Source: Marsupella aquatica (taxonomy: Eukaryota; Plantae; Marchantiophyta). Taken from it: a stretch of 64,000 nucleotides of DNA. The DNA lies in contig OZ316899.1 of NCBI GenBank assembly GCA_973895155.1, positions 9,112,287 to 9,176,286 on the forward strand, written 5' to 3'. Under the pieces are notes generated by a model. That model ran no database searches and was not told the DNA's origin. It was given only the letters and a program-made list of their open reading frames with translations. The number at the start of each line of letters is the position of its first letter. Within the stretch, counting starts at the first letter, position 1. Of the stretch, positions 13,922-46,538 are shown in pieces. Made by a program: the position numbers and the translations under genes.

Positions 13922-16900
13922 TGTGATGCCTAGCCAGGAATCATTAAGCCAGTTTAAATAGTAAAATCAGGAGTGTACCCTAGGAAACACCTTAGTATAG
14001 TAACAAAAATAGGGAAATATAAACAATTAAGGGTGACTATGGAACCCGAGCCGAGGCCGAAAGTAAGGACGCCGGGGGAGGGAACACAATTAGGGTTAGG
14101 GTGCGCTAAGTATCGGCGGCTATGGGTAACCAACGGGAAGGAAGACCAGCCAAGGGGGGGGGGTAAGGACCAAGCGCAAGGAATGGCGGCTCATTTGCAA
14201 ACACGAGCCAAGCGGACGACCACGGGAGGCCAACTACTGTCCGCTGCTCAGGCAAGCACTCGGCGTGGAAGTAGATACCGACAATCAACTCAAGAAGGGT
14301 ATGAGGAACGTCAATCAAGCTGCTCATTTTTGGGGATGCCTGTTAGAACGAGCAACTGAGTACATTGGGACCTACGAGGACGAAGAATCAGAGAGAGTGG
14401 CTCGAGAACGGCAAGAGCTTGCTCGGCTATGGGAGCTACAGAAGTCTGCTTTCTTAGGAGGAGAACTCATTACGGCTGAATTCTTGTGGACGCCTACTGC
14501 CGACAAACTGGACGATCTTCTGTTTTGTGAGAACAGAATAGTCGGCATCCGGGAGGCCATCAACCGCGCAACAACATACACTGGGAGTTGAAGGGTAGCA
14601 CGGAGGGGTGGACGAAGGCAACCGTGCTAGGAGAAACATCCACGGCAGCCGCTATGAAGAGGAAAGGGAACAACAACAAAGAAGCCACCCCTGCGAAAAG
14701 AACGAGGTCGGCGGCACCCAAGAAACCAGTAGAGTAGGGAAGCAGGAGGCAGGCAGAAGCCAAAGAGGAGGAGGTCGACCCCATCAATGCCGTTCCAACA
14801 AGAGATGACACCTGGAAAGGCTGGGCGGCGACCCTCCCCGAGGAGGTGCAATTACACTTTGCAGGGGAGGAGGATGCATGCTTTACGGCTATGCAGACTC
14901 AAAAATACCAAGGTTTCATGGTCGGATCCGGCTTGGAAGCCTTTGTAAAGTTACCATGGCTAAAGCCGGAGGTGTTGGATTCAGACTTACTAGAATTCGT
15001 GGGATCATGGGAGCCCGAGACCAATTCCACAAGGGTGTATGGGAAGGATTTCTATCTCACTCCCCGGGTGATTGCCGAAGTTTTTGGCTTGCCAATGGGC
15101 AATAAGACCAAAGTAGATACCAGGAAGACCTTGCTAGACAGGGAGTTCCGGTTGTTTCCAGGGCCATCAACAAAGAATGGCTTCTTCCGAAACACCTGCA
15201 TCAACCCGCACATAGGAGGAATGATTGATTTCTTGCGGGTAACCATGCATTGTAACTTGCCGAGGGCACAAGTCTATCTGGCGAAGAGGCTAGACCCAAG
15301 CCAAGACTACAATAGGTACCTCCTCACCCAACTAAAGAAGATCTTGAAGGAGGAACAGCTGGTGATCGGCATGGGAAGCGTTCCCGGCTTGGTTATCATA
15401 TGCCGCTGTTGTGCCGGTATGCCCGAAGTCAGATATTTACCCCAGATACTGCCCCTGCAGGCAAGAGCACCAGAGGAGGTTCCGGAACCGAGGCCGGCAA
15501 TAGAGAAACCGACCCAGCCCAATAGTCCTACAATCGAGCAGGTGTTTAGGCCGAGGAAGGAGGACTTGCCGATGTAGCAACCAGGCATGCAGAATCTGCT
15601 GAAATTGCTGGAGAAGGAAAGGAGAACGAAACGGCAATGGGACCGGTACAGAATACTGCTGTCGAAGTCGGCCTTAGCCAACTTACCAGGGAAAACCCCT
15701 TTATCGGGGTCAAGGAGAGAAGGAGGCCGGAACACGAGCCGGGAGTCCGAATGTATGTAGGAGCTTCAAGTCCCGAAGCCGAGGAAAAGCAGCCCAAAGC
15801 TCCTAGTCGCGACAGGGAGAAGATGAGATCAACGTGGAAGCCGGAGGAACAAGGACCCATGATCTGTGAGGCCGTGTTCACGGCAAGACCAGGACAGCAA
15901 CGGGGGGAGCCGGGAGTCCAAGCCGAGGAGGAGGCGATAGAAGGCTACGACAATGATGACTCCGGCTACGGGTTGGACCATCATGTTCCAGGAATAAGGA
16001 CCTGTGGCAGGTTCATCCCCACTCTTTCAAGAGTAGTTCAAGGGGACCCGACCCAGCAGAGCAGCCCCGAGTCTCCCCCACCAGATGTCGCTCCCCCGAG
16101 CTTTGACGACATAAAATAGACGGCACAAGAGTTTCAAGAACGACTCAGGGAGGAAGAAGAGGCAGCCCTGGCTAGGGAGAAGGATTTACCAGGAGGAGAA
16201 TGGCCAAAGGACATCAGGCGGCTTGCAAAAAAACGAAGCAGCCCGCGAGCCACAATAGAAGAAATTTGCAAGGCGGCTTGGGAACAAAGGCTGCGATGGA
16301 TGATGCCGATGACTTCTACTCACTCCACCTATGCTAAAGAATGAGCCATGGAGTACGGGGAGATGTGTGGGGAACTTGCGCTTGACATCTTTGGGGAGGA
16401 GTTGGAGCAAGGACCTTTTTTCCAGAGGGAAATGTTGGAGAAGCGCCAATTAGAAGGAGCGGTGGCTTTGGAGAGAAGCGAGAAGGACGAGGTCATTCGT
16501 TGGCTTAGGGTAAGGGAAGCCAAGGTAGAATACCTAAAGGCGGCCAAGAAAGCCCAAGATGAGTTGCGGATTAAGCGGCATGAGCTCAACATCATGCAGG
16601 GGCAATTGGATACCGGGCAGTCTGATAATCAGATTATCAAGGATAAAGTGACTCGGATCAAAGGTGAGCTGGCCGATTCGATCAAGAAAAAGGAGAAGTG
16701 GAAGCGAGAGCTGAGAGACGCAGAGGAGGCCCACATAGCAGCCAACAATCGGGCCATGGCGGAAACTCAGAGAAGGGAAAGGGCGCTGAAGGGGGAACTC
16801 GAGGATATCCGTGGAGCCCTTGAGCAGAAGGAGGCCGAGTTAGGGAAATCCTATCAGGCGATTATCGTGCTGCGGCAGGAGCTCGCATCCATGACGGCCA

Positions 16901-17183
16901 ACTTCAAGGCCGACCTCCGCGAGAAAGACAACCAGCTCGACCAGACTTATGCCAAGATGAATAAAATGGAGTCTGAGGTCGTTACAGAGCTTGACAAGGA
17001 GCTGAGAGCAACCCAGGAGGAGAGAGCTACCTTAAAGGAGGAATTGGAGGAAGCCCAGAAGGAGCGGGAGGAGGAACGCAAGGACCTGGATGAATTGCAA
17101 GAGGAGTTGGAAGAAAGCACGCGGAAGATGGAGAACTCACAGCGGCGAGCCAACAACCAAACGAAGCGGTTGAAGAAACAGGC

Positions 17184-17778
17184 TATCGTGCGCATACATA
17201 TCGCTACACAACATACATCGCTTGTCACATACATCCAGACATAGTCACACTGCCACATCACAAACACAAGAGAATGGAATACAAGTGGAACTCATGTCCA
17301 CACATGTCCAAAACCCACAATAATCTCCACACAATCGGCACCACGATCCCGGTCAACAATACCGCACCGATCCGATCACACACGTATGTCAAGCCAACGC
17401 ACCTTGCACTACTCAAGGAAATCCACGTTACACAAGCGGAGCTCACAGCCACCATAGCCACTCAAGCTCCTCTCTCTCCAAGGCTCAACATTGAAAGATG
17501 ATCTTTCAATGCCTCACAAGTGAGAAGTACCCTCTCACACAAACCTGACGGAACCTTATTGGCTCATATAACACACATACCAAACATACGGATCTAGATA
17601 GTATGATATACTCTAACACTACCTAGAATGGTGTGACAGCTGTCGTGCGCATACATATCGCTACACAACATACATCGCTTGTCACATACATCCAGACATA
17701 GTCACACTGCCACATCACAAACACAAGAGAATGGAATACAAGTGGAACTCATGTCCACACATGTCCAAAACTCACAAT
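17184..17778 (-). repeat. 3' terminal repeat block a-GC-b-a (sense orientation) with palindromic junction GACAGCTGTC
   Basis: The 138-bp a repeat occurs twice. The 317-bp b repeat matches 26561-26876. The junction is at 17635-17644 and a polypurine tract (minus AGGGGGGCG) is at 17779-17787. Confidence 0.92.
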
Positions 17779-17951
17779 CGCCCCCCTAGCTGGGAGTAAG
17801 GTCCCCTAACTCTAGCTAGCCATGAGTTCTATAAGGTTGATATACACCTTTTTAGGTGTGAAGATCAGGAGGCCGGGTGCAAGTGAGCCCCATCGATCAC
17901 CTACCTGCAATCCATATCTGCCAAGAGAACACAAATGATAACTAGTCGGCT

Positions 17952-19265
17952 TCACCGACACTGAGGACACAACCATGATCCACTAGGAATCACCTGCAAT
18001 GGTGGTGTCAAACATGACATGTGCCATCCTCTAGAACACTTATCACAAATCAACATAGTAGTTGCTCCCTGAGCAGATCCACACAACATACATTTCAAGC
18101 CAGCACGAACATGTGCCAAGCTTGGATCTACTGTACCATCAATGTTGGGAAGGTGACATGGTGCACAGTTGCGCACATGATCCTTCCAAACCATACCATC
18201 GCGTCCCTCCAACATCAGGACACCAGAAGGCAACACTTCACGCACACGTAAGATTGTCCGGCCTGCGGTCACATCAAGTGTCGTGGGTGCTGTCTGTTGC
18301 AAATAAATATAATCACCAGGATGAAATCGCCAAATGCTTGCACGGTAACCTCCTCCATGAATAGTGGCATACCTCAAAGTATCACGATGTTGGGCAATGG
18401 CAAGGTTGTCGAAAGCCATGGGCATCACTCGCTGAAATACCCGTGCTCTCTCTGAACACACCTTGATCCAAACATCAGGATCATCCAAGTTCACAACTGA
18501 TGCAGCATCACAACGAATAGCTGCTGGCAAATCTGGCTCTCTACCATAGAGCAAAAAGTAAGGTGAGAAGGATGCAAGTGATGCTTGCCGACTAAAACGG
18601 TAGCCCATAGCTAACCAAGATAGCTGGAGATCCCAATCTCCCAGATGACCAACCTGCAAGCCATACTTACGTAATCCTCTCTTCACAGTTTGCACAACTC
18701 TCTCAGCTAATCCATCTGCCTCAGGATGATCATGAGAGGTAGTACGATGATCAATCAGAGCTTGTTCACAAAAACTCTCAAACTCTCCACGAAACTCAGT
18801 TCCCTGATCAGTCAACACCTCAGCTGGTGCTCCAAAATGACTGAGTACACGATCCAAAAATGTAGCAGCAACTTCTCCACTGGCTTTATCTGGCAACGCC
18901 ACTAGCTCAATCCACTTGGAGAAGTGCTCCACCATGACCAAAACATACCGATTATGACGTTGGGTAAGAGGTAATGGACCAGCAAAATCCAAACTCCAAC
19001 GATATCTCAAACCCATGATCGGCAACGGGTGCAACTGGGGAGTGGGAGCATTAAATGATGCTCTCACTCTATCACATACCACACACTTAGCTATCAACTG
19101 CTGGACATGAGTGTGCATACCATGCCACCAATACTGTGTCTGCAGCAAGCTGTAAGTGCGCTTTACACCAAAGTGACCCAACTTCTCGTGCGCATGTCGC
19201 ACCAAATGTACTCTCTGTGATGGTTTTGGGACCACCAACACTCTACCATCATGCAATACTCTCAA
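17952..19265 (-). CDS. DDE integrase with C-terminal PHD finger
   Basis: HHCC (HEKLGHFG..CVVC), SLDFAGP, LTDQGTEF and AERVVQ, followed by the C4HC3 finger CMLC..ICDKCSRGWHMSC..WLCPQC. Confidence 0.93.
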   Translation of the reverse strand: MRVLHDGRVLVVPKPSQRVHLVRHAHEKLGHFGVKRTYSLLQTQYWWHGMHTHVQQLIAKCVVCDRVRASFNAPTPQLHPLPIMGLRYRWSLDFAGPLPLTQRHNRYVLVMVEHFSKWIELVALPDKASGEVAATFLDRVLSHFGAPAEVLTDQGTEFRGEFESFCEQALIDHRTTSHDHPEADGLAERVVQTVKRGLRKYGLQVGHLGDWDLQLSWLAMGYRFSRQASLASFSPYFLLYGREPDLPAAIRCDAASVVNLDDPDVWIKVCSERARVFQRVMPMAFDNLAIAQHRDTLRYATIHGGGYRASIWRFHPGDYIYLQQTAPTTLDVTAGRTILRVREVLPSGVLMLEGRDGMVWKDHVRNCAPCHLPNIDGTVDPSLAHVRAGLKCMLCGSAQGATTMLICDKCSRGWHMSCLTPPLQVIPSGSWLCPQCR

Positions 19266-19329
19266 AAGATGGTTTCCCTCCCATCGAAACCTCTTGGCTC
19301 TCTATAGAACCCTGTCACGTTCCTTGGCA

Positions 19330-21030
19330 TCAACACTGGCAACAATAGAACCACTGCGCAGATATTCCAACACTCACATCATTGTGAATATCTTGCTGTC
19401 CAGTAGTTACCTCACTAACATCCACATCTGAAGACTCATCATCCACTCCATCCAATGAGGTAGAGTCCACAGATCCACTGTATGCTGACACCCAACAAAG
19501 AAAGGCAGATGCATGCCATCCTGGCACCATCTCCTTATCTGACTCATCATGCCATCTGGTTCCAGTCTCATCTTGCTGACTGGTACATGGATTGCGGCTT
19601 AATCCATCTGCATCCAAGTTCACTTTTCCAGGCCTATGCACCACCTGGAAATCATACTCCTGTAACAACAATGCCCATCGTGCAAGTTTCCCTGTAAGCT
19701 TGTCAGACTCCATTAACCACTTAAGAGGCTGATGATCAGTGATCAAGGTGAAGGGATTACCAAACAAGTAGCAACAAAAGTGTGCAACAGCCCACACTGC
19801 TGCCAAACACTCTCCCTCATAAGAGCTATACTTAGCCTCTGCTGAATTGTTTGATCTACTGGCATAAGCCACAACAAACTCATTCCCCTCATCATCCTTT
19901 TGAGTCAGCACTGCTCCAAGTCCTACTCCACTCCAATCAGTGTGTAGCTGAAATGGTCTGCCTGAAATGGGTCTTCTCAAAATAGGGGATGATGCCAACC
20001 TTTGCTTCAACTCCTGAAAGGCATGCTCCTGGTCATTACCCCAAATCCATTCCTGATCCAACTTAGTGAGTATGGTCAAAGGTTTAGCAAGCTGGCTAAA
20101 TCGTTTAACATACCTCCTGTAGTAGCTCGCCAATCCCAAGAATGCACGAACTCTACTCACATCAGTAGGACAAGGAATCTGTGTAATGGCCTCCACTTTA
20201 GTCTGTTGTACACCCAATCCCCTTGGGTATATAGTGTGGCCCAAATACTCAATCTGGTCTTGGAAGAACTTACACTTGCCAGGATGGAGCTTCAACCCAT
20301 GTGCTCTCAATCTCTCCAACACAATCTGCAAGTGCTGTTGATGTTCTTCCACAGTAGAAGAATAGACCAAAATATCATCAATACAACATCTGACAAAATC
20401 CAAACCTGCAAGGATTCGATCCATGACTCTCTGGAACTCAGCTGGTGCATTCTTCAACCCAAATGGTAAGAATAACCACTGATACAAACGATCTTTGCCA
20501 TAAGAATCAATCCCCCAGAATGCTGTCTTGGACCTGTCAGCATGCCTAATTGGAAGCTGATGGTACCCTGCCCTCAGATCCAATGAACTGAAAACCTTTG
20601 CATGCCCCACAGCATCAAAGATCTCCTCAGGTGTGGGCATCGCATATCGATCAAATTTTGTCTGGCGATTAATAGGTCTGTAATCACCACACATGCGCCT
20701 ATCTGTGTAATTGCCATGCACATCCTTCTTGGCTGGCATCACTGTGGCAGATGCATACTCCCCATATGAAATCTCCACCAATCCAGCCTCCAACAAATCT
20801 TGAGTTTTGCTTTGAATCAGAGCTCTCTCCATGTCACTATAATGGTATGGTCTACGAAAGATTGGCGCATCACTAGCCAATTCAATCTGAATACCAGGGC
20901 CCTTCAGTGTCCCCAAATCCTTCATGCTGAATGCAAAACAATTCCAATAACTCTTCAGGAATCGATGCATGCGACGTCTCTCCTCCCCTGTTAACTTAGG
21001 GCCAAACTGTGGTTCCCAACTCTCCACCAA
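19330..21030 (-). CDS. Reverse transcriptase and RNase H
   Basis: LDLRAGYHQL, LPFGLKNAPAEFQ and CIDD (YIDD mutated); RNase H motifs LHTDWS, EGECLAAVWAV and TDHQPLKWL. Confidence 0.95.
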   Translation of the reverse strand: MVESWEPQFGPKLTGEERRRMHRFLKSYWNCFAFSMKDLGTLKGPGIQIELASDAPIFRRPYHYSDMERALIQSKTQDLLEAGLVEISYGEYASATVMPAKKDVHGNYTDRRMCGDYRPINRQTKFDRYAMPTPEEIFDAVGHAKVFSSLDLRAGYHQLPIRHADRSKTAFWGIDSYGKDRLYQWLFLPFGLKNAPAEFQRVMDRILAGLDFVRCCIDDILVYSSTVEEHQQHLQIVLERLRAHGLKLHPGKCKFFQDQIEYLGHTIYPRGLGVQQTKVEAITQIPCPTDVSRVRAFLGLASYYRRYVKRFSQLAKPLTILTKLDQEWIWGNDQEHAFQELKQRLASSPILRRPISGRPFQLHTDWSGVGLGAVLTQKDDEGNEFVVAYASRSNNSAEAKYSSYEGECLAAVWAVAHFCCYLFGNPFTLITDHQPLKWLMESDKLTGKLARWALLLQEYDFQVVHRPGKVNLDADGLSRNPCTSQQDETGTRWHDESDKEMVPGWHASAFLCWVSAYSGSVDSTSLDGVDDESSDVDVSEVTTGQQDIHNDVSVGISAQWFYCCQC

Positions 21031-21249
21031 ATCCCTAATATCTCTTTGTAGGGTAGAAGAGATAGCCGATGATTGCTATTTAGCAGTAGATTGAGCAGTC
21101 CCTTCCTGCTCAACAATCTGTCCAGCCTTGGCCAATCCTGCCATAGGTCCATGGACTGTCTGCTCGCCCCCAACTGTGGTCAATATTGCCTCAATGGACC
21201 GCAAGCTCACCAAGGGACAATTAGTAATTCCAGCAGAGCGCATCCGCAA

Positions 21250-22240
21250 CTATTCAGCTACTCCCAAGCTGATAATCCAAGTCAAACAATTCAGGTCCAT
21301 TGCTTGACCAAGAACCTGGCGCCGCAAACCCTCTGACACAGAGGCAACTGCAGTGGTGCCAGTAAAAAATCCCATAGCACGCTCTCTCTCATCAGCAGTA
21401 GGCTCCACTAATTGCTGGAGAGCTGTGTCCCACACAAGTCCAGGGCCACCTGCTCTGAATGCATATGAAGTAGAGTGGCTTACAAGAGTGGGTAATGCAC
21501 AACATGGGTGCCCAACTGCATTGACCATTGCCAATGGAGGTCTATCAGGTTGGGTCACACCCTGTGCCCGACGCCCTGGATCCAAAATATCATCCACCAC
21601 TAAGGCTGGTGAGCGTGGAATGCTGTCAAATGCGCGCTTCAGCACCTCACATGGGATCAAATTAGTCCACCACAAGCGTGGATGATGTGCACAAGAACCC
21701 ACACGTGCAACATCCAATAACATAGCAAGTCCAATCCAAGACCTCACCTGGTGAACACTGGCAACAATCCGACTACGATCATCACCTAACAATGGCACAT
21801 TCTCCAAAATGTATGCTGGAGACTGTGTCTGATGTAGCTGGAGATGACGCAGCACCCGTAACATCTCTCAAAACAATGCAGAGCGTGGATCATGAAGTCC
21901 ATGCCCAATGCCCTAGATTGGCCCTGACATGGCCAACCAGCAATCACCAAATCAATGGGGCCAACACGATGTAGATGATCCGCCCCCAACAATGAAATAT
22001 CAACAAGTAGTGCATGCTGATAACCATGAACAGCATCCACTGGCAGCAACTGTGGATATCTATCCACCAACATAGCCACATGTCGCAATGAGACCCTCCG
22101 TGCTGTCTCATCTGTCTCCACATACAAATAACGACGCACAAGAATTCCTGCCTGAAGAACAGCAGCCAATCCAGTACTAATCCCACCAAAAAGATCCAAC
22201 AAACAAATACCCTCCGGTGGATACTGCCAAGCAATAGGAG
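21250..22240 (-). pseudogene. C5-cytosine DNA methyltransferase domain (DNMT3/DRM-like) within pol, one frameshift
   Basis: Motifs in canonical order: I LLDLFGG, II YLYVETD, IV IDLVIAGWPCQG, VI YILENVP, VIII RLWWTN, IX ERERAMGF, X LGQAMDLN. Confidence 0.92.
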
Positions 22241-22569
22241 TGGTATCCAATGGTGAAAGAGTCACAAGTCCATCTGCAAGAGACTGCTCTGCTCCTGGCT
22301 GTGGTGTAAAAGCATGACGCCATGCATCATGTACTAATCGTGCTGCTGCCTGTGCAGTGCCCCACACTGGTGGCACAACACTGCCAACAGGTAATCCTCG
22401 CATGATGTGCTCCTCATGAGACTCCTCCAATGGTGGAACATCGGCTGCATGCGCATTACCCTCAATCAAATCATCAGGTCCAGCAATTACACCACTGAAT
22501 GCTGCCAAAGACAATGGTGTGGATTTAGGGCCTCCCACAGGTCCACTAAATCTCACTGGCAATTTGCTC

Positions 22570-23000
22570 AATCGAGCATCTCCGGACTGCCAATCAAGTC
22601 TATATGACACTAATTCCTCCCAAAAATCAAGAATAAATCCCATGGGGTAGAGCACTGTACATCCCACCAACACATCATATGACTCTGCCTTAGTCAGAAT
22701 AGCTCACGCCTGTATCTGTGAGCTATCTGTGGTATGACCTTCCTGAATCCTCAAATCAAGTGGTCTCCTGGTGATATGTTGTGTAGGTGTAGGTCCCCCC
22801 AATGAAGTCTGAATGGGAAAGGGACAATCCTCCAAATCCTTTGGACGCAATCCCAACCCACGTATGGCAGACTTCCCCAACATCAAGGGTTGAGCACCAG
22901 TATCCAGTAACACTCTCTCTGGCTGGTATACTGCTCCAGAAGACCCAACTAATCGGAAGATGCCACTCCGATTATCCAATGACACAACACTAGGTTTAAA
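22570..23000 (-). pseudogene. Aspartic protease of the split-repeat element
   Basis: RVLLDTGAQPLMLG and the downstream LVG..VLYPMGF.LDFW. Confidence 0.8.
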
Positions 23001-23351
23001 CCTAGTCCTCTCAAATGTAGGGTGTGCTGGTAAATCCACCAACCTTGCTGCTGCTGCATGCCATGTCTCACTAGTAGCAGTAGGTGGTATGGTCTTCATT
23101 GCTTCAACACTGCAAGCTGCTTCTGCATGGGAAGCAACAACTGGAGTGTCCTCATAGAGTGTAGCTGCCAATCTGAACACTTTTGCAGGACCAACTCCCA
23201 AGTTCAGCATGTCTATCGCTGAAAATAATGGGGTGCGTACTATGGCAGTAGCCACCCCCAGCAGGGTACTTGTCATCCCTACTGTATCACTACCGGATTC
23301 TGCCAACTTACCCACGCCAGGGTTTGTCCGAACCGGGTTCATAGAGGCAGT

Positions 23352-25051
23352 CTAAACTGTCTCTAACAATGTAAAAGACTGAGGAAGCTTTGTCTGCCAA
23401 CGTGCATCCCCCCTCTGTGGATCTAGCTCCACTACTGCTCCTCGGGGCTCAAGAGCTTTGGCTGTCCCACGTGTCAAAGCTGCTGATGCATCAATATGTG
23501 CAGTGCTACACATGAATCCCATGGTGGCAAGATCTCCATCAGCTCCATAAGATGTGGAAGGACCATGGGATGTGGAAGGTCCATAGGATGTAGATGCCCC
23601 ATCACCAGAAGTAGGTCTCACCTGGGAACTAGCCATAGCAGCTAGCTGTTGCTCCAATTGAGCAATCTTAGCATCCTTTGGATCTATGGTTACAGTAGGG
23701 GCAGCGTCACCTCCCTGTCTCCCTGCATGTGGCATGCCACGACCACGTCCACCACCTCTACCTCCTCCTCCTCTTCCCTGATCATGTGTACGGGATCCTC
23801 CCCTTCGTAACTCAGGGTGGAGTGAGAAACACCTATCCTTGGTGTGTCCAGGAGCTCCACAGTGATCACACTGTCGCTAATCAGGTGCTGATGCTCCCCC
23901 TGATCCTCTATGATCTGGGCAATATCTCTGTGCATGATCCCCACCACAGGTCCAACATCCTGACTGCTGTCCAGCATAAGAGGGCACAGGTCTCTGGCTG
24001 GTAGACTCTCGTGCAGTAGGCTTCTCCCTCTGGCTCTTCTGTGCAATAGGTTGTGGTGTAGATGTAGATGCAGCCTTTGGTGCTTCCTTGGCAAATCCAG
24101 AAGTCACCACCTTCTCATTCACCATATTGAGCTCAATGCGCTCAAAAAGGGTGAAACAACTGCTAATGTGGGATTTGCATCCCTAAGCAGAGTGACATCT
24201 CTCACTCTGCGTCGCAATTATCTGTCCAGAATTGCATACCAAAACTGGACTGCTTGAGCCTCTGTTACTCCCTTGGTGACAATGATCAATCTGCGCATAT
24301 GAGTGTATGCCTCACGTAGACTCTCTCCAGTCTTGCGCTGGAACTCCTGGAGACCCTTCAACTTATCAGTTCTCACACCCTGATAGTTCTGCTTCAGTAC
24401 CTCAAAGAATTCCACCACAGGATTAAATGCTGGCGCAACTCCAGTTCCTGTCACAATCACACCGGCAGGAGTAGCGGTGGATGCTGCTGGAGTGCTGCTG
24501 GTGGATGGTGTGCCACTCTGGCTAGTGCTGCTAGAAGAGGCAGCAACTGTGGCAATGGGTTGGGTAGCCGCACTAGTGCCATAGGTGATGGATACGTAAT
24601 TAGGTGACCAATGCTGCCTCCATGCCTCAATCTCAACCAAATGAGCCTTTCAAAACTCATGGTAGTCATCCATGGGTGGCCCTTCCAAATGCTGAAATAA
24701 TCCCTTCCATGCCATGAAAGGGGTAAACAACATGGCGTTACGCAATGTCTGCATATCGCACCACGTATCAAACTCCTGGATGAAGTCATCCAGATCAATT
24801 GTGCCAACTGCACCAGAGTATCGTCGTGGGCCCTTTGTAGCCCCGTACATCTCGTCCATATCCCACAACAAAGGTGCAACCACCTGATGACGAGGAGAAC
24901 TGGTCACTGAGTCCTCGTCGGAATCATTGTCTAAAGCTGCACTGCTGACTGCTACCAATGCCGCTGGCCGAAACTGTGCCCCACTCCGAGTGAAACCGGT
25001 CCGTCGTCCATCGGGTAATCCAACAGCACCAGAAGAATCTGTGGTGACCAA
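23352..25051 (-). pseudogene. gag: gag with two CCHC zinc knuckles, frameshifted
   Basis: YSGAVGTIDLDDFIQEFDTW, FQRKTGESLREAY, CWTCGGDHAQRYC and CDHCGAPGHTKDRC. Confidence 0.8.
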
Positions 25052-26560
25052 CCCTAACCTAATCTATGTGCTAACCCTAAGGGCAATCTATCCCTGTCAG
25101 CACCACAAGCACTCACCATGGTGTGTTGGGCATCACTCCAACATCACCAGGAGAGAAATACATAGCACAACTAGAATGTCCGGTTGCAAACCCGGATCAC
25201 TCCTATAGAATCAAGCGCCCACGCCAAACTAACATGGCGCATAAACAGGAAGCATGTGTGGAGAGGATCCAACAACAAGAAGAGGATTTACCACAACTCT
25301 CCACACCAATCAATCAGAAATACATGTAAATAATGTGCATATAGTTCAATGTAGGGCCTTCATAATAGGCCTCAAGAATCCCGCGTCAAATATTCAAGAA
25401 TCCATCGCAAACTAGCTAAAACAGAGTATCTAGATGAATTCAAAAGTGCATAAAACCCCTAGGGCCTCATTCCTTGGACATCAAATGTGGAAGGAAGCAT
25501 GTACAATGCACCACATAGGAACTTGCTAGTTAAGCGCATGAGGGGAGGAATAGCTTTGGGATGGGTGACCTCTCACTTGTCAGTATGCACCAAATCTGCC
25601 ACTCCAAAATGGCAGCACTTGCAATTCTCCTCACGTACCAGCAAGCTGGCTTGCTGGCCCGCCCGCTCCTGCTTCGCCCTCACGCCCCTCGTCCCGAGTT
25701 GCCTCGAAGCCTCGAAACGCCGAGATGAGCCAAAGAGTGAGACCTTCACGCCCACAACGCTTTGCTATGCCGGAACCAAGTCCAAGTCCAGATTTTGCAC
25801 CATTTGGACTTATGGCCCCTGTTTCCCTTCGCAGAACTGCACGGTAGCGGCGTACACTCCGTCGCAACAGTAATCCGCGGATGCTGCCACCGCATCGACG
25901 TACTATCTCACAAAAATGCAGATCATCAGTTGAGATCTCGCAACATTCGGGTCTCAATCCCTCAGTTTCCTTCAAAGAAACACGTTGCAAAATGCAACTC
26001 AACTTCGCGCCAACCAACACTTAACCGAGTGCAAAATCAGCAATATATGCAGCTGCGGACAGTCGCTTTCTTCACACCAAACTTGGTCCGCGCAGATCAG
26101 CATACGGAAGAACTAGACAACAATACGGCCGTGCCTCGCAGATCTGCATACGGACAAACTAGATAGCAATACGGCCGCGCACTTTGCAGATCTGCAACCG
26201 ATGACACCATCAGAATGCCGTTTCCTTCACAAAAATAGCCACCGCTTCACAAGATAGAACGCTGCCGCACCCGATCTGCTTGTAGCCAACCGATACAACT
26301 CAAACACGTCGATCTGCAACCAAGATCTGCACATTGTCGACAGATTTGTGCATACAGACTACAGATTCGCCAAACCTCCAACTCCAGATCCGCTCAAGAA
26401 TCAAACTCACAGGATCTCAACTTGGATCCACATGCCGGCGATCCAATCAAACGATACGCTGCACGATCCGAGATACCACAAACCGTTGCCGAACAGAATC
26501 AAACTGAAAATCGAAGCTCTGTCCAACAACAACAGAGTCCAATGCTTGATCTTTCAATGT

Positions 26561-26876
26561 AATCTCCACACAATCGGCACCACGATCCCGATCAACAATA
26601 CCGCACCGATCCGATCACACACGTATGTCAAGCCAACGCACCTTGCACTACTCAAGGAATCCACATTACACAAGCGGAGCTCACAGCCACCATAGCCACT
26701 CAAGCTCCTCTCTCTCCAAGGCTCAACATTGAAAGATGACCTTTTAATGCCTCACAAGTGAGAAGTACCCTCTCACACAAACCTGACGAAACCTTATCGG
26801 CTCATATAGCACACATACCAAACATACGGATCTAGATAGTACGATACACTCTAACACTACCTAGAATGGTGTGACA
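26561..26876 (-). repeat. 5' terminal repeat b of the split-repeat element
   Basis: Near-identical to 17322-17638. Begins TGTCAC on the minus strand. Confidence 0.92.
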
Positions 26877-27439
26877 AGGCCGCAGTATTTAAGTGCTTGG
26901 CTTCCTCAGGTCCAACTCCAATTGGGGCAACCAAGTTACCAGGAGTAGTACTGGCCGAAGGACAAGCCGAGACACTTGCACCGGTGCCGGAGGTAAGTGG
27001 CAAGGGGAAGGGGCCAACTGCCAAACCAAAGAAGAACAAGAAGCAAAAACCTTCTGGGTCAGGGAGTAATACGGCTCCTCAAGCCGTCGTGACCAAGGAG
27101 GTAAACCCAACACCAACCTCAGGCAGGGTCACGGCAAAGGATCCAACTGCCCTAGAAGGCGGGGATGGCAAAGCCAAGGCCAAGATACTCGGTGATGAAG
27201 CCAGGGTACCAGATCCACCACTAGTACATGTCGGGGAGGCCGTGGCCAATGCTGAGGCCAAAGCCGAGGGTGGACCCAGTCAGGCCAATGGAGAGTTGAC
27301 TCGGTCCGGAGCAAGTAATCTGTCAAAGGACGGACCTATGGTAGTGGCTGCGGAGGAAGTGTTGGGGGTGTCCATTGAGGACCAGACACCGCTGCCATGA
27401 CGGTGGTGGAGGGCCGCTCCTTTTAAGGAGGGCGGACGT

Positions 27440-35405: not shown

Positions 35406-35526
35406 TGGAGCAATTGCCTTCCCTTTCTCAATGGGAGTAATTGGGTCGGATGGAGCTCCTATTTGGCTTCAGAAACCTTTGGGGTGGCATCTATCTTTGT
35501 ATCTCCACTCCCTAAAACACTTTGGA

Positions 35527-37913
35527 CCCGGCTGTTGGCTGTTATGTGGGCCTCCTCTATATTCCTCAGCTCTCGCTTCCACTTCTCCCTCTCTTTGATC
35601 GTATCGGCCAACTCTCCCTGCGTCTGAGTCAGTTTATCCTTGATATTCTGATTATCAGCCTGCGCGGTGTCCAACTGCCCCTGCATGATGTTCAGCTCAT
35701 GCCGTTTAATCCGCAGTTCATCTTGGGCTTTCTTGGCCGCCCTTAGATCTTCAATCTTGGCTTCCATCCTCCTAAGCCGCCGAATGACCTCGTCCTTCTT
35801 GCTTCTCTCTAAAGCCACCGCTTCTTCTAATTGGTGCTTCTCCAACTGCTCCCTATGGAAAAAGGGTCCTACCTCCAACTCCTCTCCAAAGATGCCGAGC
35901 GCAAGTTCCCCACACATCTCACCATACTCCATGGCTCTATTCTTAGCGTAGGTGGAGTAAGTAGAAGTGATCGGCATCGCCCATCGTGGCCTCTGCTCCC
36001 AAGCCGTCTTGCGGATCTCTTCAATTGTGGCTAGAGGTTTGCTTCCTTTTTCGGCTAGCCGCCTGATGTCCTCCGGCCAATCTCCTCCTGGTAAATCCTT
36101 TTCCCTAGCCAGGGCTGCCTCCTCTTCCTGCCTGATTTGCTCCTGAAATTCCTGCGCCGTCTGTTTTATGTCGTCAAAGCTCGGGGGAGCAACATCTGGT
36201 GGGGGAGACTCAGGGCTACTCTGCTGGTTGGGGTCCCCTCGTACTACCCTTGGAAGTGTGGGGACAAACCGGCCACAGGTCCTTACTCCTGGAACGTGAT
36301 GGTCCGACCCATAGCCGGAGTTATCATGGCTGCAGTCCTCCACTGCCTCCTCTATTTCTTGGACGTCCAGCTTCTCCCTCTCCTCTTCGTCGGTAGGAGC
36401 TTCAGGCAATTCTGCCTCAGATTCAGAGCTTGAGACTCCCACATACATTCGAACACCTGGCTTGGATTCCGGCCTGATTCTCTCCTCGTCTCCAGCAAAG
36501 GGGTTTTCTCTTGTGATCCGGTGTAGGCCTACCTCTGGAGTGGTGTTCTGCATTGTTGCCGTTGCCGATGCCGATCTCTTTTCTTTCTCTAGTAGTTTCA
36601 GCAGACTCTGCATGCCTGGTTGCTGCATTGGCAAGTCCTCCTTCCTGGGCCTAAACACCTGCTCGATTGTAGGGCTAACAGGTGGTTGAGGCTTCTCTGC
36701 TACCGGCCTGGGTTCTGGAGCTTCCTCGGGTGCCCTTACCTACAGGGGAAGTACTGGGGCAAAAGTCTGACCTCTGGCATACCGGCACAACAGCGGCATG
36801 TGATAGCCAAGCCGCGACACGCTCCCCATGCCGATTACCTGCTGCTCCTCCTTTAAGATCTTCTTCAATTGGTTGAGGAGGTACTCGTTGTAGTCCCGGC
36901 TTGGGTCTGGCCTCTCTGCCAGATAGACCTGTGCCTTGCCGATCTCCGCCCTCGGCAAGTTACAATGCATGGTCACCCGCAAGAAGTCGATCATCTCTCC
37001 TATGTGCGGGTTGGTGCAGGTGTTCCGGAAGAAGCCATTCTTCGTTGATGGCCCAGGGAACGACCGGAACTCCTTGTCAGGCAAGGTCTTCCTGGTATCA
37101 ACTTTGGTCTTATTGCCTATCGGCAAGCCAAACACTTCGGCAATCACTTTGGGAGTAAGATAGAAATCCTTCCCATATATCCTCGTGCAATTGGTCTTGG
37201 GTTCCCATGACCCCATGAATTCTAATAGGTCTGACTCCGGTACCTCCGGCTTCAGCCATGATAATCTTACAAAGGCCTCTAAGCCAGATCCGGCCATGAA
37301 GCCTTGGTACTTCTTGGTCTGCATGGCCATAAAGCATGCATCCTCCTCCCGTGCAAAATGTAGTTGCACCTCTACCGGTAGGGTTGCCGCCCAGCCCTTC
37401 CAGGTGTCATCCCTGGTTGGAATGGCCTTGATGGGATCGACCTCCTCCTCTTCGGCTTCTCCCTGCCTCCTGCTCTGCTGCTCGGCTGGCTTCTTTGGTA
37501 CCGCCGACCTCGTTCTTTTTGCCGGGGTGGCTTCATCATTGACGGCTCCCTTCCTCTTCATCTCTGCTGTCGTGGAGGTTTCTCCTAGCACTGTTGCCTG
37601 GGTCCACCTTTCCGTGCTACCCTTCAATTCCCAGTGTATGTCGTTGCAGTTCTTGATGGCCTCTCGGATGCCGACGACGCTGTCTTTGCAAAACAGAAGA
37701 TCGTCGAGCTGATTGGAAGTAGGAGTCCACAAGAACTCGTCTTTGATGAGTTCGCCTCCTAAGAAAGCCGTCTTCTGCAGCTCCCACAATCGAGCGAGCT
37801 CCTGCCGTTCTCGAGCTGCCCTTTCTGATTCCTTGTCCTCATAAGTCTTGATGTACTCAGTTGCCCGTTCGAACAGGCATCCCCAGAAATATGCCGCTTG
37901 ATTGACGTTGCTC
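35527..37913 (-). mobile_element. Internal fragment of the family B LTR ORF without termini
   Basis: ORFs 36740-37927 and 35459-36658 encode the family B protein. No TG/CA ends or TSD. Confidence 0.9.
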
Positions 37914-38145
37914 GTTGATCCGATCAATGAGCATTATTTCCCTCTATGTAATCGGTTGGAGAGACGTTACTCAATGTGAATGTTGAGATTGAATATTACT
38001 TATCGGTAACAGAAAGCGACAATTTAGGAATTGTGATAGGTATTAATGTAAATTATGCTAAAATATTGTCATGAAGATTACGCTAAACAATAGTTACCAT
38101 TAAATATTACCGTTGTCCAGACACCTTAAAGACAAACATGCAATG

Positions 38146-38540: not shown

Positions 38541-38802
38541 AAATGGACCCACTTCTTTCGGCCTATATGTGGTCATTTTGATGTAATAAATATTCCTGAC
38601 ACCCGCACTTCTCGGGGAAAAAAGGACAAACTTTTTATTTATGATTTCAACGGATGCAATTTAGTGCTTGTTCCCTGTCGTATTGAAGTGACTCTTTTAA
38701 CGGCCAGTCGTCTTGAAGCAGTGGTATAAGCATTCCATACGGGCGGGATTGGTTTTGTTGATTCCTTGATTTTCTTGGTTACTTTCACTTCATTTCTCTA
38801 CA

Positions 38803-41800
38803 TTGTCGCGCTCAATTGTTATTACACGTGCTTGTATAGGGGACGTCATCAAGGTTCCCGTGCAAGTTTCTGATACGTACAAGCAAGTAAGTGAAACCTA
38901 CCTTTGCGGAAGATTTGATTTGAGAATGAATGATATTGAGTCGATTGTTCCCGAGGAGTCAACGAGTGGAGGACTTGAATGTACTGCGGCATTTGATGTA
39001 GATGAGGGAATGTGTTTTTGGCATATGAATGTCGGACTTTGTTACACGCTTTATGTCAGACGTACTCCTCTTGAATCAGTAGTTGGGAAGATTCCTGTCC
39101 AGGTTGTTGAAATCTCTGAGAGTGAAGATGAGGATGTTGCGCCCAATCCTCCTGCGAAGTACAAAGTTCCAGATTCTAGTTTCCTTAAGAGTGAACCGGT
39201 GGCCACCTCCGGAGTTGTCCATAAGGTTTATCGGCGGAGTGCAATGGACGCCTTACTCAAGGCCACGGGACATAGTGAACTATCAAGATTTATATTGGCA
39301 AGGGACTTCCAACATGAGCAAGTTCCTTGTTTTCCAAACAAGTACAACGGAAATGTTGTATTTGAATTGCCTCCCATTGAGAGAATGCTCTCCAAGGGAT
39401 TGAGACTTTGTGACATGGACCGTGCCAAAGATTGCAACATTTGGACCCAAATTTTTCTGACAACTGCAAACGTGCAACCAAAGAAACACTGGGAATTTGG
39501 TAAGGTTACGTGTACTCGGTTCATCGAGTGCAGGAACAAGTCCTGTGAGTATTTTCAGCAAAAGAAGAGATGCAATGCAAAAGCCTGGCATGGTACTCCT
39601 AAGCTTAGTGGCCAGCACGTGGTGGGTTTGTTCAATGAAGAGGGTGGTGTGGTATGTCACTACTGTGAGCAGATTCCTTTTTGTGTGGAGTCTTGCCCTG
39701 CTTGCTTGTTCTATATGTATCCGCAGGTCCTACTTGATACAAAAACCTGTAGTCACATGTCTCGGCTCGCGGTTCATATAGGTGAACATAACCATCCAAG
39801 TAGAAATTTTTTCTTGAGGAGCGCTGAAAAGATAGCCAAGGATTTAATAAAAAGAAATCACGAAACCAATCCTTTTGCAAAGTCGACTGGGATCTTAAAT
39901 TTTGCGACCGGTTTGCTTGTGAAAGCTCTTTGCAAAAACGTCAACGACATGGTAGATATTGAAGAAACAAATATTTGGAAGTCTCTCATGGTACTATCTA
40001 CTCCTCGGAAATTTGCATCGCTTTGTCGAAGCGTTCGAATGGACCAGAATGGTCATGGTGAGTTAGATTTCCTAGCTTGAATGCAAAGGACAAATAACAT
40101 TTCTTTCCTCCAAAGGTATCTTCTGTTGGGTCAGGGTTGTCTAGCAGATAGGCCCCATATATTCAAAATGACAGTCAAGGGTCACGGATCTGGTGTAGAT
40201 CTTCTACGGCAGATGCAACCAAGCGGAAGATTGGAAGGAGCTTGGGTTAGTTTTGATGTCATGAAGTGCGTGACAACCGATTGGTTTACTTTCAATGCAC
40301 ACGTTTACGATCACAACTTCCAAGCTCTTTGTACAATCTTTACATGCGAACTTAAAGCTGAAGACACGGAGTCTTTTGAGAAGGCATGGAGAATTATCAT
40401 TGAGGTTTGTAAGGAAAATGGGTTACATGAGGTTGTCATCCAAGGTTTTATGGCTGACAATGCTCAGGCTGGGTGGATCGCCGTTTGCAATGTCTTTTTT
40501 GGAGGGCACCCAGAACGTGAATGCTCCAATGCATTTCACTTTTACCAGTCTTTCCATCGACATTCCGCGGAAGGAGTACTTGAGGGTAGGCAACCTGAAC
40601 ATCAAAGACTCTGGGAGAAATTGCGGAATGCTCCAACGTTTGTTGCGGCATATCGAGTTTCTAGGGAGATTATGTTGTGGTGGCAAGCAGGCAACTGTGT
40701 ACCAGGAAAATTGATGATGTTGCAAAGTTGGATATCATGGTGGGTTGTTTGATGGCGTCACTGGGGGAATTTCATTCATGTGGTAAGTTTTATCTATGCG
40801 TACAATAGTCAATTCTCAATGTGTTTATACTACCGCCCAATGCTACTTTTAACTGTACAAAAAACTTTGCAACATTTATGACTTAGGACCACTTGGACAA
40901 TAACAACATTATATTATTATGTCATACACATTGCTAACGCTTGGCGCTGCTTAAACAAAATGACTAAATTTGGTATGCATGGACTTCATTGTAGAGCAAA
41001 AGTGCAGAAAAAGGTGCCCTCATTCCAAACTATACAGGTTTTGAGTCGAGGCACGCTTCCATGAAAGCATGGGCAACCAAAAAATGGTGGGTCTCTTTGA
41101 AGCATGCAAAGTTGATCAAAATTGAGCTCTATCTCAAGTTTCGGGTTACAGCGCATATCGGAAAGGACTCAATAGAGGGAAGGGGCCAACTATCTAGGAA
41201 TTAGCATTCCAATCCGCAGACCAAGCAAGTTCACCCAAGTTATTCAAAGAAGCAACCAACATGATTCTTTCCAACGCTGTTGATTTTGATCTGGGTAGAA
41301 GTTCTCCTCTAAATGGAGATATTGTCGGTTAAGAGGAAGGGACTTGCAATTGGGATTGTCTTGCCACAAGACTCCCATCGGCATGACACCATTCTCATCA
41401 CTACCCCAAATACTCAAGGATTCAAACGGAAGAATCTCAACAACACTGAGTTCACTTCCATTCCCGCCAATGTAATAGATCTTGTAGTCGACCTCTGCGG
41501 GAGTGACACTTCAACAAATGAAAGTGATTCCCTTGCGAACACCCTTGAAGCCACAAGGGCAACAACATCATTGCAACCACCACTCAATGCCCCTGCTGTG
41601 CTTCAGCGTTTGCCGACACAATCAGCTCCTTTGGAAATGGACGTTCCTAGAGGTAGTTGGCATTTGAGACAGATGGTCAAATATGGGGCAGGGCCGCAGT
41701 GTAATGGGACTTTGTATGGAAATTCTGAGAGGGATGAGTGTCAAAATTGTGTCAAGAAAGTCGGGTTCCATTCGGTTGCTGGTGTTGTCGGCATTGTTGT

Positions 41801-41938: not shown

Positions 41939-42900
41939 CGTCAATTTTTTGCTTTCAAGGAGTAGTAATTACATAGTTTTAGTGATTAGCGGGGTTGTTA
42001 GGTTTAGGGTAACTTAATAAGTAAGGAAGTAGAGTAGGGAAATAAATTGAGGGAGAGGACATGTTTCTCTAAGAAGTATCAAGAGTTGAGTAAGTTATTT
42101 GGTAAGGGCGGAAAAAAGTTATGGTAGTCGGCAAGTCGGGCCAAAGGCATGACCAATACTTTTGAGAGATAAATTTTGCTAAGACTCACCCTATAGGTGC
42201 TAGGTAGTCCCTAGATCACACATAAAAGTCACAAAGTCAAGTGGGGTCTTAACTTAGGAGTTGTAAGTATTTTGACAAAACTTAAAGTTACCAAATAGCG
42301 GGTCTCAGGAAAAATAGCTGATGGGAAAAGGTAGGGGTTCCAAGTTGCAAAGTAGGTTAAATATGGTCCACTCTATCCCTGGAAACTTGTGGCAAAACTT
42401 GGTTACCTTTGGTTACTTTTTGGGAACATCTCAAAGTTCAGAAGAATTTTGGAAAACATAAGAATTAGTCCTCTTTACCTAATTTTATAAAATTGGTTAT
42501 AGGGTTTTGTTTAGATCTTAGTAAACCAGGACATAGCCCTATGTCCAGAGAATCTATGGATCTACTCAAAAGTCCTTTTGGCCTTATGGGTGATTTTTGG
42601 CGGTGGGTACAATATGGGCCGGTGAATTATATTTTTTCCAAAACAAAATCCGACTAAGTGTAAAAATGCTTCGACGAGGCTACCACAAGGCAGGAATAAG
42701 TCAAGCACAAGGGCGATTGGGAGATGGTTGAATAGACCAGGAAATCACAAGGTGAAGGAGCTTGAGTGGGAGTGGGAGTTAGTTGACTTTTGTTGTAGTG
42801 TGACTTTGGTAGTTAGTTGGACTTTTGTTGTAGTGGGACTTTGGTGATTGGACCTTGGTCCTTGGTCCTCTACTTTGGTCCTTGGTCCTTGGTGGGCTAC

Positions 42901-45416: not shown

Positions 45417-46414
45417 GCTACTTTGGTCCTTGGTCCTTGGTGGGCTACCTTAGTCATTGGTCCTTGGTCTTTGGTGGGCTACTTTGATCCTTGGTCCTTG
45501 GTGGGCTACTTTGGTCCTTGGTCTTTGGTGGGCTACCTTGGTGTGGTGTGGAAGGAGAATAGTATATAAGGAGGAAATTTTCCTTTGTTATGGACCAGAA
45601 TTTTCAATTCTCAAAGTAGAGGCTCTACCTTGTTAAGTTGGGGCTAAGTTTGAGAAGGCAATGAGGTCCATACTTAGTGTGAGGATATTGTAGAAGATCT
45701 TTTGTTGTAAAGATTGAGTATGCAATGAAAGGAGTCTTCCCAATCTTCAATGTGACCATTAAGTGTGAAAGAATTTGAAGTGTACGAGGGCAAGAGAAGA
45801 GTCCATGTTAGGGTGCAATCTTGGTCTAAGCTTGAAGGGGATGTGCTGGTACACAACCAAGACCAGGGAGGCAAGGTTAAGGTGGAGCACTAATTTGAGA
45901 CTTGGAGAGGATTGTATCTTGATGGTGGAAAGTACTTTGTCTTTTGTGAGAACAAGAGGAAGAGTCCTTAGAAAAAAGAGTTGTTTCTAAGAGCTCAAAG
46001 GGGATGTGTGGACCCAAACCAAGGTCGGGGGGCAAGGTTGAGGGGTAACACTACTTTGAGGGTCTTCAGGAGACTTGAGCTGGAAGAGGAAAGTACTTTG
46101 GGTTCTTGGATGTTTGTGTGAGAATCTACTCTAAGGTGACAGCTTGGAGTGGAGATCCCCCTTGCTAATCCTTGGAGTAGAGGAGAAAGGAAGGGTGTGA
46201 GCGCAAAAGTAGTCAAGGGGACTACCTCTCTAGAAGTGGAGAGTTTAAACTACTTATGTATGGTGTGATATGACATTGCAAGCACATTTCAAGAAGTTTT
46301 GTCAATCCTTTATGACCCTGGTATGATATGGAATAGGTATTAGGTAGTTTTTTGGGGAGAAAAGTCACTTAAGCTCCTTGACAAGTGTTTGACATAGAGA
46401 CTCATCCTTGTTTT

Positions 46415-46432
46415 TGGCGCCGCTGCCGGGGA
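46415..46432 (+). promoter_or_regulatory. Primer-binding site (tRNA-Asp, Athila type)
   Basis: TGGCGCCGCTGCCGGGGA. Confidence 0.88.
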
Positions 46433-46538
46433 CAACTCTTTGCAATTTTTATTGTGGGAGTGGAGCCACAAGACTTGGAGGTGTGTTTGCAGGTTGGTTG
46501 TTCAAGAGGAGGGAGATAAGAAGGTGATTGTGAGTGGC

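What the first reader, a model, noticed from the sequence alone, without database searches (positions are those of the whole stretch)
17952..22240. The same element encodes a C5 DNA methyltransferase inside pol and a PHD finger on its integrase
Seen: a full set of C5-MTase motifs, with catalytic PCQ and ENV intact, lies between protease and RT, and a C4HC3 PHD finger occupies the position where chromoviruses carry a chromodomain. Known: DNMT capture by retrotransposons has been reported in dinoflagellates and charophyte algae, and PHD fingers read H3 tails. Inference: the polyprotein could package a methyltransferase that marks its own cDNA or circle, or the target locus, while the PHD guides target choice. 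This copy is probably dead (frameshifts, CIDD).
Basis: partly seen in the sequence, partly recalled or inferred. Interest (0 to 1): 0.9.

Follow-up and report, generated by a model that had tools for sequence, protein, structure and literature searches.

The report
Methylase-carrying retrotransposon with leaky stop
This is a broken copy of a plant-lineage jumping gene that carries its own DNA-methylating enzyme and a likely histone-reading finger, and a conserved stop signal after the enzyme likely lets it make much enzyme but little copying machinery, probably to mark its own new DNA.

Summary
Observation confirmed. A 9.7-kb Gypsy element (17184-26876, minus strand; TG..CA-type ends, 4-bp target duplication, split direct repeats) encodes gag-protease-DNMT3-like methylase, then RT-RNaseH-integrase-PHD. 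The methylase is an old part of the family, not a secondary insertion: it is in frame in relatives, dN/dS about 0.13-0.29, DNMT3A/B fold. This copy is dead, its methylase included. The kind is known (KnitGypsy-Dnmt3, PMC5890265), PHD fingers on Gypsy Pol are known (PMC9940879), and this scan met the family twice on other DNA. New here: the stop between methylase and RT (21076-21078) is not decay. No sister contig variant at 5% or more was listed there. 60 of 62 related loci have a stop at the same place, 56 followed by CARYY, and five divergent lineages keep a TMV-type context. So the methylase ends the Gag ORF and RT-IN-PHD likely needs readthrough, putting the enzyme at capsid-level amounts in the particle. 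Relatives occur in Marchantia, Calypogeia and Sphagnum. Volvox, Haematococcus and Tetradesmus place the methylase just before integrase instead. Activity, substrate and readthrough are untested, and CpG depletion gave no support for self-methylation.

The parts
26877..26880 (.). 4-bp target site duplication, 5' side of the element
   Evidence: same four bases at 17180-17183; one copy only at the empty site 60204-60207 of the host repeat
26560..26876 (-). split direct repeat A1 (5' end, begins TG)
   Evidence: 96.9% identical to 17321-17638
23352..24859 (-). gag with two CCHC-like knuckles (23919-23957, 23829-23870); broken by stops and a frameshift near 24155
   Evidence: aligns to the N-terminal part of Marchantia P0006
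22500..23000 (-). aspartic protease region (DTG at 22896-22910); ends approximate
   Evidence: Pfam Asp_protease_2 E 0.002, below cut-off; conserved in relatives
21253..22238 (-). DNMT3-like C5 cytosine methyltransferase, unpermuted; broken in this copy
21070..21078 (-). family-wide in-frame UAG with CARYYA context, end of ORF1 (gag-PR-DNMT); candidate readthrough site
   Evidence: no variant at 5% or more listed at 21066-21085 among 224+119+7+2 contigs laid on 21030-21130; stop at this place in 60 of 62 loci
19560..21075 (-). reverse transcriptase and RNase H; catalytic RT motif altered in this copy
   Evidence: Pfam RVT_1 1.6e-31, RT_RNaseH 6e-36
18300..19301 (-). DDE integrase with HHCC zinc domain; frameshift upstream near 19370-19400
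   Evidence: Pfam Integrase_H2C2 3e-16, rve 4e-15
17952..18092 (-). C4HC3 PHD finger at the integrase C-terminus, then the ORF2 stop
   Evidence: Pfam PHD 8.9e-11; PDB hits CHD4, DPF3, ATXR5, KDM5B, UHRF1; present in 27 of 27 loci long enough to show it
17639..17778 (-). split direct repeat B1, preceded by a G-rich tract
   Evidence: 98.6% identical to 17182-17321
17321..17638 (-). split direct repeat A2
17184..17321 (-). split direct repeat B2 (3' end of the element)
17180..17183 (.). 4-bp target site duplication, 3' side of the element

Best explanation
This is a dead copy of a Gypsy-DNMT3 retrotransposon whose first reading frame (Gag-protease-DNMT3-like methylase) ends at a conserved UAG-CARYYA stop that is likely read through now and then to make RT-RNaseH-integrase-PHD, so the methylase would be packed into the particle in Gag-like amounts and probably methylates the element's own new cDNA, while the PHD likely tethers the integrase to histone H3 tails. 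Shown: domain order, repeats and target duplication, family-wide conservation of methylase, PHD and stop, purifying selection, DNMT3-like fold of a relative's domain. Inferred: readthrough (about 0.75), catalytic activity on cytosine (about 0.8), cDNA as the main substrate (about 0.5), PHD reading an H3 tail without K4 methylation during target choice (about 0.55). A pre-methylated new copy would look like host heterochromatin from the moment it lands.
For: Methylase in the same place and frame in relatives from Marchantia, Calypogeia, Sphagnum and metagenomes. Catalytic Cys kept in 164 of 171 and the ENV Glu in 191 of 207 aligned relatives. dN/dS 0.13-0.17 between L064 and L066 (RT 0.04), and 0.18-0.29 window versus four loci. 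Profile hits DNMT3A at 1e-17, DRM at 4e-7, HaeIII at 3e-6. The model of L019's domain (pLDDT 91) matches DNMT3A/B, TM about 0.7. Stop: no variant listed in sister contigs; 60 of 62 loci have it, 56 with CARYY; background CARYY after any stop triplet is 0.8% and CARYYA 0.2%; the nine-base box is 56-100% identical between lineages whose flanks are 20-60% identical; L066 has this as its only stop in a 7.25-kb frame. In the window, L019, L060 and L066 the first AUG after the stop lies beyond the conserved RT N-terminal motif. Marchantia, Calypogeia and Sphagnum gene models end 95-100 aa after motif X, the same place. UAG-CARYYA is a proven readthrough signal in plants (PMC2754532, passages). A DIRS-borne Dnmt3 methylates CG de novo (PMC5890265 section 10).
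Against: No activity, RNA or ribosome data were obtained. The Klebsormidium domain did not methylate yeast DNA, called inconclusive by the authors. 49 of the 56 CARYY loci lack the final A, and most of these have AUG at +7, which fits reinitiation as well; they are mostly one Sphagnum-type family, so the independent count is about five lineages. Two loci (L033, L035) have a sense codon there, and seven database proteins run from methylase into RT without a stop (P0056, P0059, P0062, P0082, P0129, P0133, P0134). In 25 proteins of the second architecture the methylase sits after RNase H and mostly just before integrase, so Gag-level amounts are not needed throughout the clade. P0116 and P0117 fall in that clade with no methylase hit. 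CpG depletion is not specific: element 0.32, but a methylase-free Gypsy in the same window has 0.04-0.14, and most related loci have 0.4-0.7.
Confidence: 0.58

Rival explanations
1. The methylase travels with the integration complex and methylates the new insertion and its flanks on the chromosome, with the PHD anchoring both: a reader-writer pair like the ADD and catalytic domains of DNMT3A (that comparison is recalled).
For: In the second architecture (Haematococcus, Volvox, Tetradesmus and metagenomes) the methylase is joined directly upstream of integrase-PHD; this group is one side of a 99/98 branch. The PHD's closest solved relatives are CHD4, DPF3, ATXR5, KDM5B-PHD1 and UHRF1 fingers.
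Against: In this element's branch the methylase is on the Gag side of the stop, away from integrase. No flank methylation data were examined.
Confidence: 0.2
2. The stop is a true end. RT-IN-PHD is made by reinitiation or from its own transcript, and the CARYY context is incidental.
For: AUG lies at codon 3 after the stop in the Sphagnum-type family, codon 5 in L065 and codon 14 in L064. Candida Tca2 has a gag-pol stop whose bypass was studied as an open question (PMC2194720, search listing only).
Against: No AUG before the conserved RT motif in the window, L019, L060 or L066. The second codon changes amino acid (Ser, Pro, Leu) yet stays YY, which points to a nucleotide-level constraint. True ORF2 stops in seven elements lack the context.
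Confidence: 0.15
3. The domain is kept for binding or decoy work (nucleic acid, SAM or host silencing factors), or acts on RNA, and does not methylate DNA.
For: No activity of the Klebsormidium domain in yeast; no element-specific CpG loss.
Against: Catalytic Cys, Glu and both motif VIII Arg are kept in 88-96% of relatives; DNMT2 matches are far weaker than DNMT3.
Confidence: 0.06
4. The methylase is a secondary insertion or neutral passenger in this copy.
For: It is broken in this copy.
Against: Same position in relatives 46-71% identical, covered by sister contigs in four runs, dN/dS below 0.3, no repeat flanking it.
Confidence: 0.01

Closest known systems
KnitGypsy-Dnmt3 of Klebsormidium nitens / 'Gypsy-DNMT3' of streptophytes (PMC5890265, sections 9-11 and passages read; bioRxiv 10.64898/2026.05.21.726589, section 8 and passages read)
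   Same: Gypsy domains, intronless unpermuted Dnmt3-like domain, DIRS-like split repeats, purifying selection; a K. nitens protein (P0075) is a homologue with the methylase before RT.
   Different: The paper places the domain in the Pol ORF and the acquisition in the K. nitens lineage, and its main text has no 'PHD'. Here a conserved stop separates it from RT, the integrase ends in a PHD, and relatives occur in liverworts, Sphagnum and chlorophytes. Fig. 4c itself could not be seen.
PHD-bearing Gypsy elements of Chlamydomonas (Gypsy-7a_cRei, PMC9940879, passages read; REM1, not held, seen only as a citation)
   Same: PHD finger in Gag-Pol, proposed to steer insertion.
   Different: No DNA methylase is listed among the Gypsy-7a_cRei domains; PHD at the integrase end was not established from the passages.
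Chromoviruses; EpiLTRs (bioRxiv 10.64898/2026.05.21.726589)
   Same: Chromatin reader on Pol; EpiLTRs pair a reader with methyltransferases.
   Different: Reader here is a PHD, not a chromodomain; the EpiLTR DNMT is sister to DNMT4 and comes with an adenine methylase.
TMV-type (type I) UAG-CARYYA readthrough (PMC2754532, passages read); SIRE1 env readthrough and MLV gag-pol readthrough (recalled)
   Same: In-frame UAG followed by CAR YYA.
   Different: Here it lies after gag-protease-methylase, so protease and methylase would be on the abundant side; no stable downstream hairpin in most lineages.
SymbioDIRS-Dnmt3 (PMC5890265)
   Same: Dnmt3 in a retrotransposon with A-coding-B-A-B repeats and two alternative domain orders; shown to methylate CG.
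   Different: Uses a tyrosine recombinase; this element has a DDE integrase and a 4-bp target duplication.

Membership tests
Gypsy-DNMT3 (KnitGypsy-Dnmt3 kind) | Gypsy domain order PR-RT-RH-IN with DDE integrase | tested here: met
Gypsy-DNMT3 (KnitGypsy-Dnmt3 kind) | Dnmt3-related, unpermuted, intronless C5 methylase | tested here: met
   profile and fold rank DNMT3A/B far above DRM and bacterial enzymes; motifs in order I-X
Gypsy-DNMT3 (KnitGypsy-Dnmt3 kind) | DIRS-like repeats A-coding-B-A-B | tested here: met
   window; both repeat pairs also in L040, L062, L072, L073, L078, 5 of the 27 PHD-bearing loci examined, many of the rest being too short
Gypsy-DNMT3 (KnitGypsy-Dnmt3 kind) | purifying selection on the methylase | tested here: met
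   dN/dS 0.11-0.30 in unsaturated pairs, many pairs saturated
Gypsy-DNMT3 (KnitGypsy-Dnmt3 kind) | methylase inside the Pol ORF | tested here: inconclusive
   same frame as RT but cut off by a conserved stop; one polyprotein only if read through
Gypsy-DNMT3 (KnitGypsy-Dnmt3 kind) | single origin with the K. nitens domain, to the exclusion of host DNMT3 | tested here: inconclusive
   tree of 58 element domains had no host or bacterial outgroup; P0075 lies on a separate branch
Chromovirus | chromodomain at the integrase C-terminus | tested here: not met
   PHD then stop; no Chromo hit
DIRS/Ngaro | tyrosine recombinase, no DDE integrase | tested here: not met
   rve integrase and 4-bp duplication; nine coding pieces scanned, the 5' leader 25064-26559 was not
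Troyka | CG..CG ends, 3-bp duplication, animals only (PMC12440569, parts 1-3 of 5 read) | tested here: not met
   TG start, 4-bp duplication
TMV-type readthrough site | in-frame UAG followed by CARYYA, conserved | tested here: met
   window and 6 loci with UAG-CARYYA, 1 with UAA-CARYYA; 49 more with CARYY only
TMV-type readthrough site | measured readthrough | not testable with these tools
   needs reporter, ribosome profiling or proteomics
H3K4me0-type PHD reader | binds unmodified H3 tail | not testable with these tools
   sequence lacks the aromatic cage positions and keeps the Asp after the third Cys (class rules recalled)

The most novel reading that the evidence does not exclude
An ancient green-plant-wide clade of split-repeat Gypsy elements captured DNMT3 and a PHD once, before chlorophytes and streptophytes parted. 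Its bryophyte branch uses a TMV-type leaky stop to load the particle with a DNA methylase at capsid stoichiometry, so every new copy arrives pre-methylated and is steered by the PHD to H3K4-unmethylated chromatin: a self-silencing, self-hiding retrotransposon that can be studied directly in Marchantia.
Probability: 0.3. Interest if true: 0.82.

Novelty: new variant of a known kind. Interest (0 to 1): 0.55.

Why it matters
Why retrotransposons carry the enzyme that silences them has been open since 2018, with examples only in hard-to-handle algae. Relatives in Marchantia polymorpha, a tractable land plant, make the question testable. The conserved stop gives a sharp prediction about how much methylase is made and where it goes. 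The two domain orders (Gag side versus integrase side) offer a natural contrast between cDNA marking and target marking. These intronless copies are also annotated as host DNA methyltransferase genes or assigned to bacterial bins, which can mislead surveys of plant DNMT3.

Tried and rejected
CpG depletion as a mark of self-methylation: element 0.32 with CHG 1.09, L019 0.28, but most related loci 0.4-0.7 and a methylase-free Gypsy at about 46000-51000 has 0.04-0.14; rejected as evidence. Twelve of the copy-private changes listed fell in CHG 5, CHH 4, CG 3, as host all-context methylation would give; the sample is small and biased. Downstream RNA structure after the stop: z from -0.15 to -1.4 in seven of nine sequences, -2.3 and -2.6 in two Sphagnum-type loci; no general hairpin. 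Troyka as the family: rejected. Viral contigs: 56 pattern matches, none a relative. No whole genome is held, so copy number and insertion sites in the host could not be studied. No RNA holder listed. No search of the 50%-clustered protein library was obtained, and no tree against host DNMT3, DRM or bacterial enzymes was built. The dN/dS script stopped at RNase H on a frame slip; redone. The RT tree (quick method) has long-branch warnings, and its 'N' label mixes true methylase-free proteins with ORF2-only products and one mislabelled row (P0012). Literature: ten searches found no paper describing these elements in bryophytes or chlorophytes or the stop; two searches were too loose to be useful, subscription papers are missing, the three text supplements of PMC5890265 had no hit even for 'KnitGypsy', its figures could not be seen, and the preprint's supplements were not seen. 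REM1 was not held.
Full report
Observation. The minus strand from 24859 to 17952 reads gag, protease, a C5-methyltransferase, RT, RNase H, integrase and a PHD finger. Pfam scores RT at 1.6e-31, RNase H 6e-36, integrase core 4e-15 and PHD 8.9e-11. The methylase pieces alone miss Pfam, but the N-half hits DNMT3A and the C-half finds 85 longer relatives, most with PF00145. A profile of seven unbroken relatives plus the two window pieces ranks DNMT3A/B at 1e-17 to 1e-12, DRM at 4e-7 and bacterial enzymes at 3e-6 or worse. An AlphaFold model of the domain from locus L019 (mean pLDDT 91) matches DNMT3A/B with TM about 0.7.

Boundaries. The element spans 17184-26876. It starts with TG, is flanked by a 4-bp duplication, and an empty copy of the host repeat at 60204 carries those four bases once. 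Its repeats are split: A (317 bp), coding region, B (140 bp), A, B, with pairs 96.9% and 98.6% identical. Both repeat pairs were also found in 5 of 27 PHD-bearing loci, and four of these show 4-bp duplications, one with a mismatch. So it integrates by DDE integrase but has DIRS-like repeats, as the Fig. 4 legend of PMC5890265 describes for KnitGypsy-Dnmt3.

State of this copy. Against unbroken relatives it has stops in gag, protease and methylase, and frameshifts near 24155, 21910 and 19370-19400. The RT catalytic motif and the stop at 21250-21252 differ from 97-100% of the summed contig depth in four public runs. The first motif VIII arginine of the methylase is also substituted. The copy is dead, methylase included.

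Is the methylase part of the family? Yes. Contigs of four runs cover it along with RT and integrase (depth is no copy number). The 80 loci kept of 296 confirmed show the same order wherever they reach far enough. dN/dS between L064 and L066 is 0.17 and 0.13 for the two halves, against 0.04 for RT, RNase H and integrase and 0.06 for the PHD; window against four loci gives 0.18-0.29 (many pairs saturated). The catalytic Cys is kept in 164 of 171 relatives, the ENV Glu in 191 of 207 and the motif VIII arginines in 186 of 211 and 186 of 207. The PHD follows the integrase in 27 of 27 loci long enough to show it.

Between methylase and RT lies an in-frame UAG at 21076-21078 followed by CAA UCA. On 21030-21130, 224, 119, 7 and 2 contigs were laid from four runs, and no variant at 5% or more was listed at 21066-21085. 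Of 80 loci, 62 held a usable RT start (17 lacked one; L027 was dropped for a deleted linker). Of the 62, 56 have a stop plus CARYY 27-34 codons before the RT anchor, one more has it shifted by an indel, three have the stop with a changed context, and two have a sense codon. Seven loci and the window have the full CARYYA; 49 have CAACCY. Most loci belong to one Sphagnum-type family and some are near duplicates, so the independent count is about five lineages. Between them the nine-base box is 56-100% identical while the flanks are 20-60% identical, and background frequency after stop triplets is 0.8% for CARYY and 0.2% for CARYYA. L066 has this as the only stop between 973 and 8227 in one frame. 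Gene models from Marchantia, Calypogeia and Sphagnum end 95-100 residues after motif X, and the closest relative P0001 ends where the window's ORF1 ends; their DNA context was not seen. UAG-CARYYA gives readthrough in plant reporters (PMC2754532). I infer that ORF1 makes Gag-PR-DNMT in bulk and readthrough makes RT-RH-IN-PHD. The rival is reinitiation: the large family has AUG three codons after the stop, but the window, L019, L060 and L066 have none before the conserved RT motif.

Range. Named relatives with the methylase come from Marchantia polymorpha, M. paleacea, Calypogeia fissa, four Sphagnum species and Klebsormidium nitens. A search with the integrase tail and PHD gave 58 proteins, including a Coleochaete transcript product with RT-RH-IN-PHD only, and Volvox, Haematococcus and Tetradesmus proteins in which the methylase sits just before integrase, after RNase H where that is present. 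In a tree of 58 element methylases this second architecture is one side of a 99/98 branch; the tree had no outgroup, so one capture is not shown. Seven proteins run from methylase into RT without a stop, and some relatives have no methylase hit. No vascular-plant name appeared among listed hits, but most hits are unnamed and one search listed only 120 of 502.

Mechanism. By established retroelement biology, ORF1 products assemble the particle in which cDNA is made, so a methylase at the end of ORF1 would be present in many copies at the site of reverse transcription. De Mendoza et al. proposed cDNA methylation and showed CG activity for a DIRS-borne Dnmt3, but none for the Klebsormidium domain. 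I take cDNA self-methylation as most likely, with marking of the insertion site as the main rival because of the second architecture. The PHD resembles CHD4, DPF3, ATXR5, KDM5B and UHRF1 fingers and lacks the aromatic cage positions (class rules recalled), so an H3 tail without K4 methylation is the likely ligand; the bryophyte-type fingers also lack the acidic loop common in the algal ones, so binding may be weak. CpG depletion does not support self-methylation, since a methylase-free Gypsy in the window is more depleted.

Comparison and verdict. It works like, and by the tested features belongs with, Gypsy-DNMT3 (PMC5890265; named for streptophytes in bioRxiv 10.64898/2026.05.21.726589). PHD fingers in retrotransposons are described as widespread (PMC6673714, PMC8557442, PMC9940879; passages), and reader-plus-methylase elements are described as EpiLTRs. 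This scan noted the same family on two other genomes, and in-frame gag-pol stops in other elements. What ten literature searches did not show is the bryophyte and chlorophyte range, the second domain order, and the conserved leaky-type stop after the methylase. Verdict: new variant of a known kind, interest 0.55.

Noticed in passing
window 17635-17644: The junction between the inner repeats is a 10-bp palindrome reading CA-GC-TG at its centre, like the joint of a two-LTR circle; a similar joint is seen in L040, L072, L073 and L078. It may show how the split repeats are regenerated.
   Followed up: partly
window 46723-51175: A second Gypsy element (gag, protease, RT, RNase H; + strand) with no methylase hit and CpG observed/expected of only 0.04-0.14.
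   Followed up: partly
window 14000-17179 and 26881-27430; copies near 35500-38000 (inverted) and 57040-60800: The host repeat into which the element inserted; it encodes a coiled-coil-rich ORF and is unclassified.
   Followed up: no
L033 and L035, junction before RT: A tyrosine codon stands where the family has the stop; tyrosine is the residue inserted at TMV-type UAG in plants.
   Followed up: no
window 55691-56521: The ORF's C-terminal part resembles a SET domain by eye (motif recalled, not scanned).
   Followed up: no
window 38770-40752: Two adjacent ORFs (436 and 223 aa) with Cys/His clusters, possibly a DNA-transposon protein (impression only).
   Followed up: no
P0032 and P0160: Element proteins are filed under cyanobacterial metagenome bins (Obscuribacterales, Synechococcales), likely eukaryotic contigs binned by mistake.
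   Followed up: no
L077:6429-11527: Two methylase-element fragments in opposite orientation, nested or rearranged.
   Followed up: no
window 42838-45537: Tandem arrays with 26- and 27-base units.
   Followed up: no
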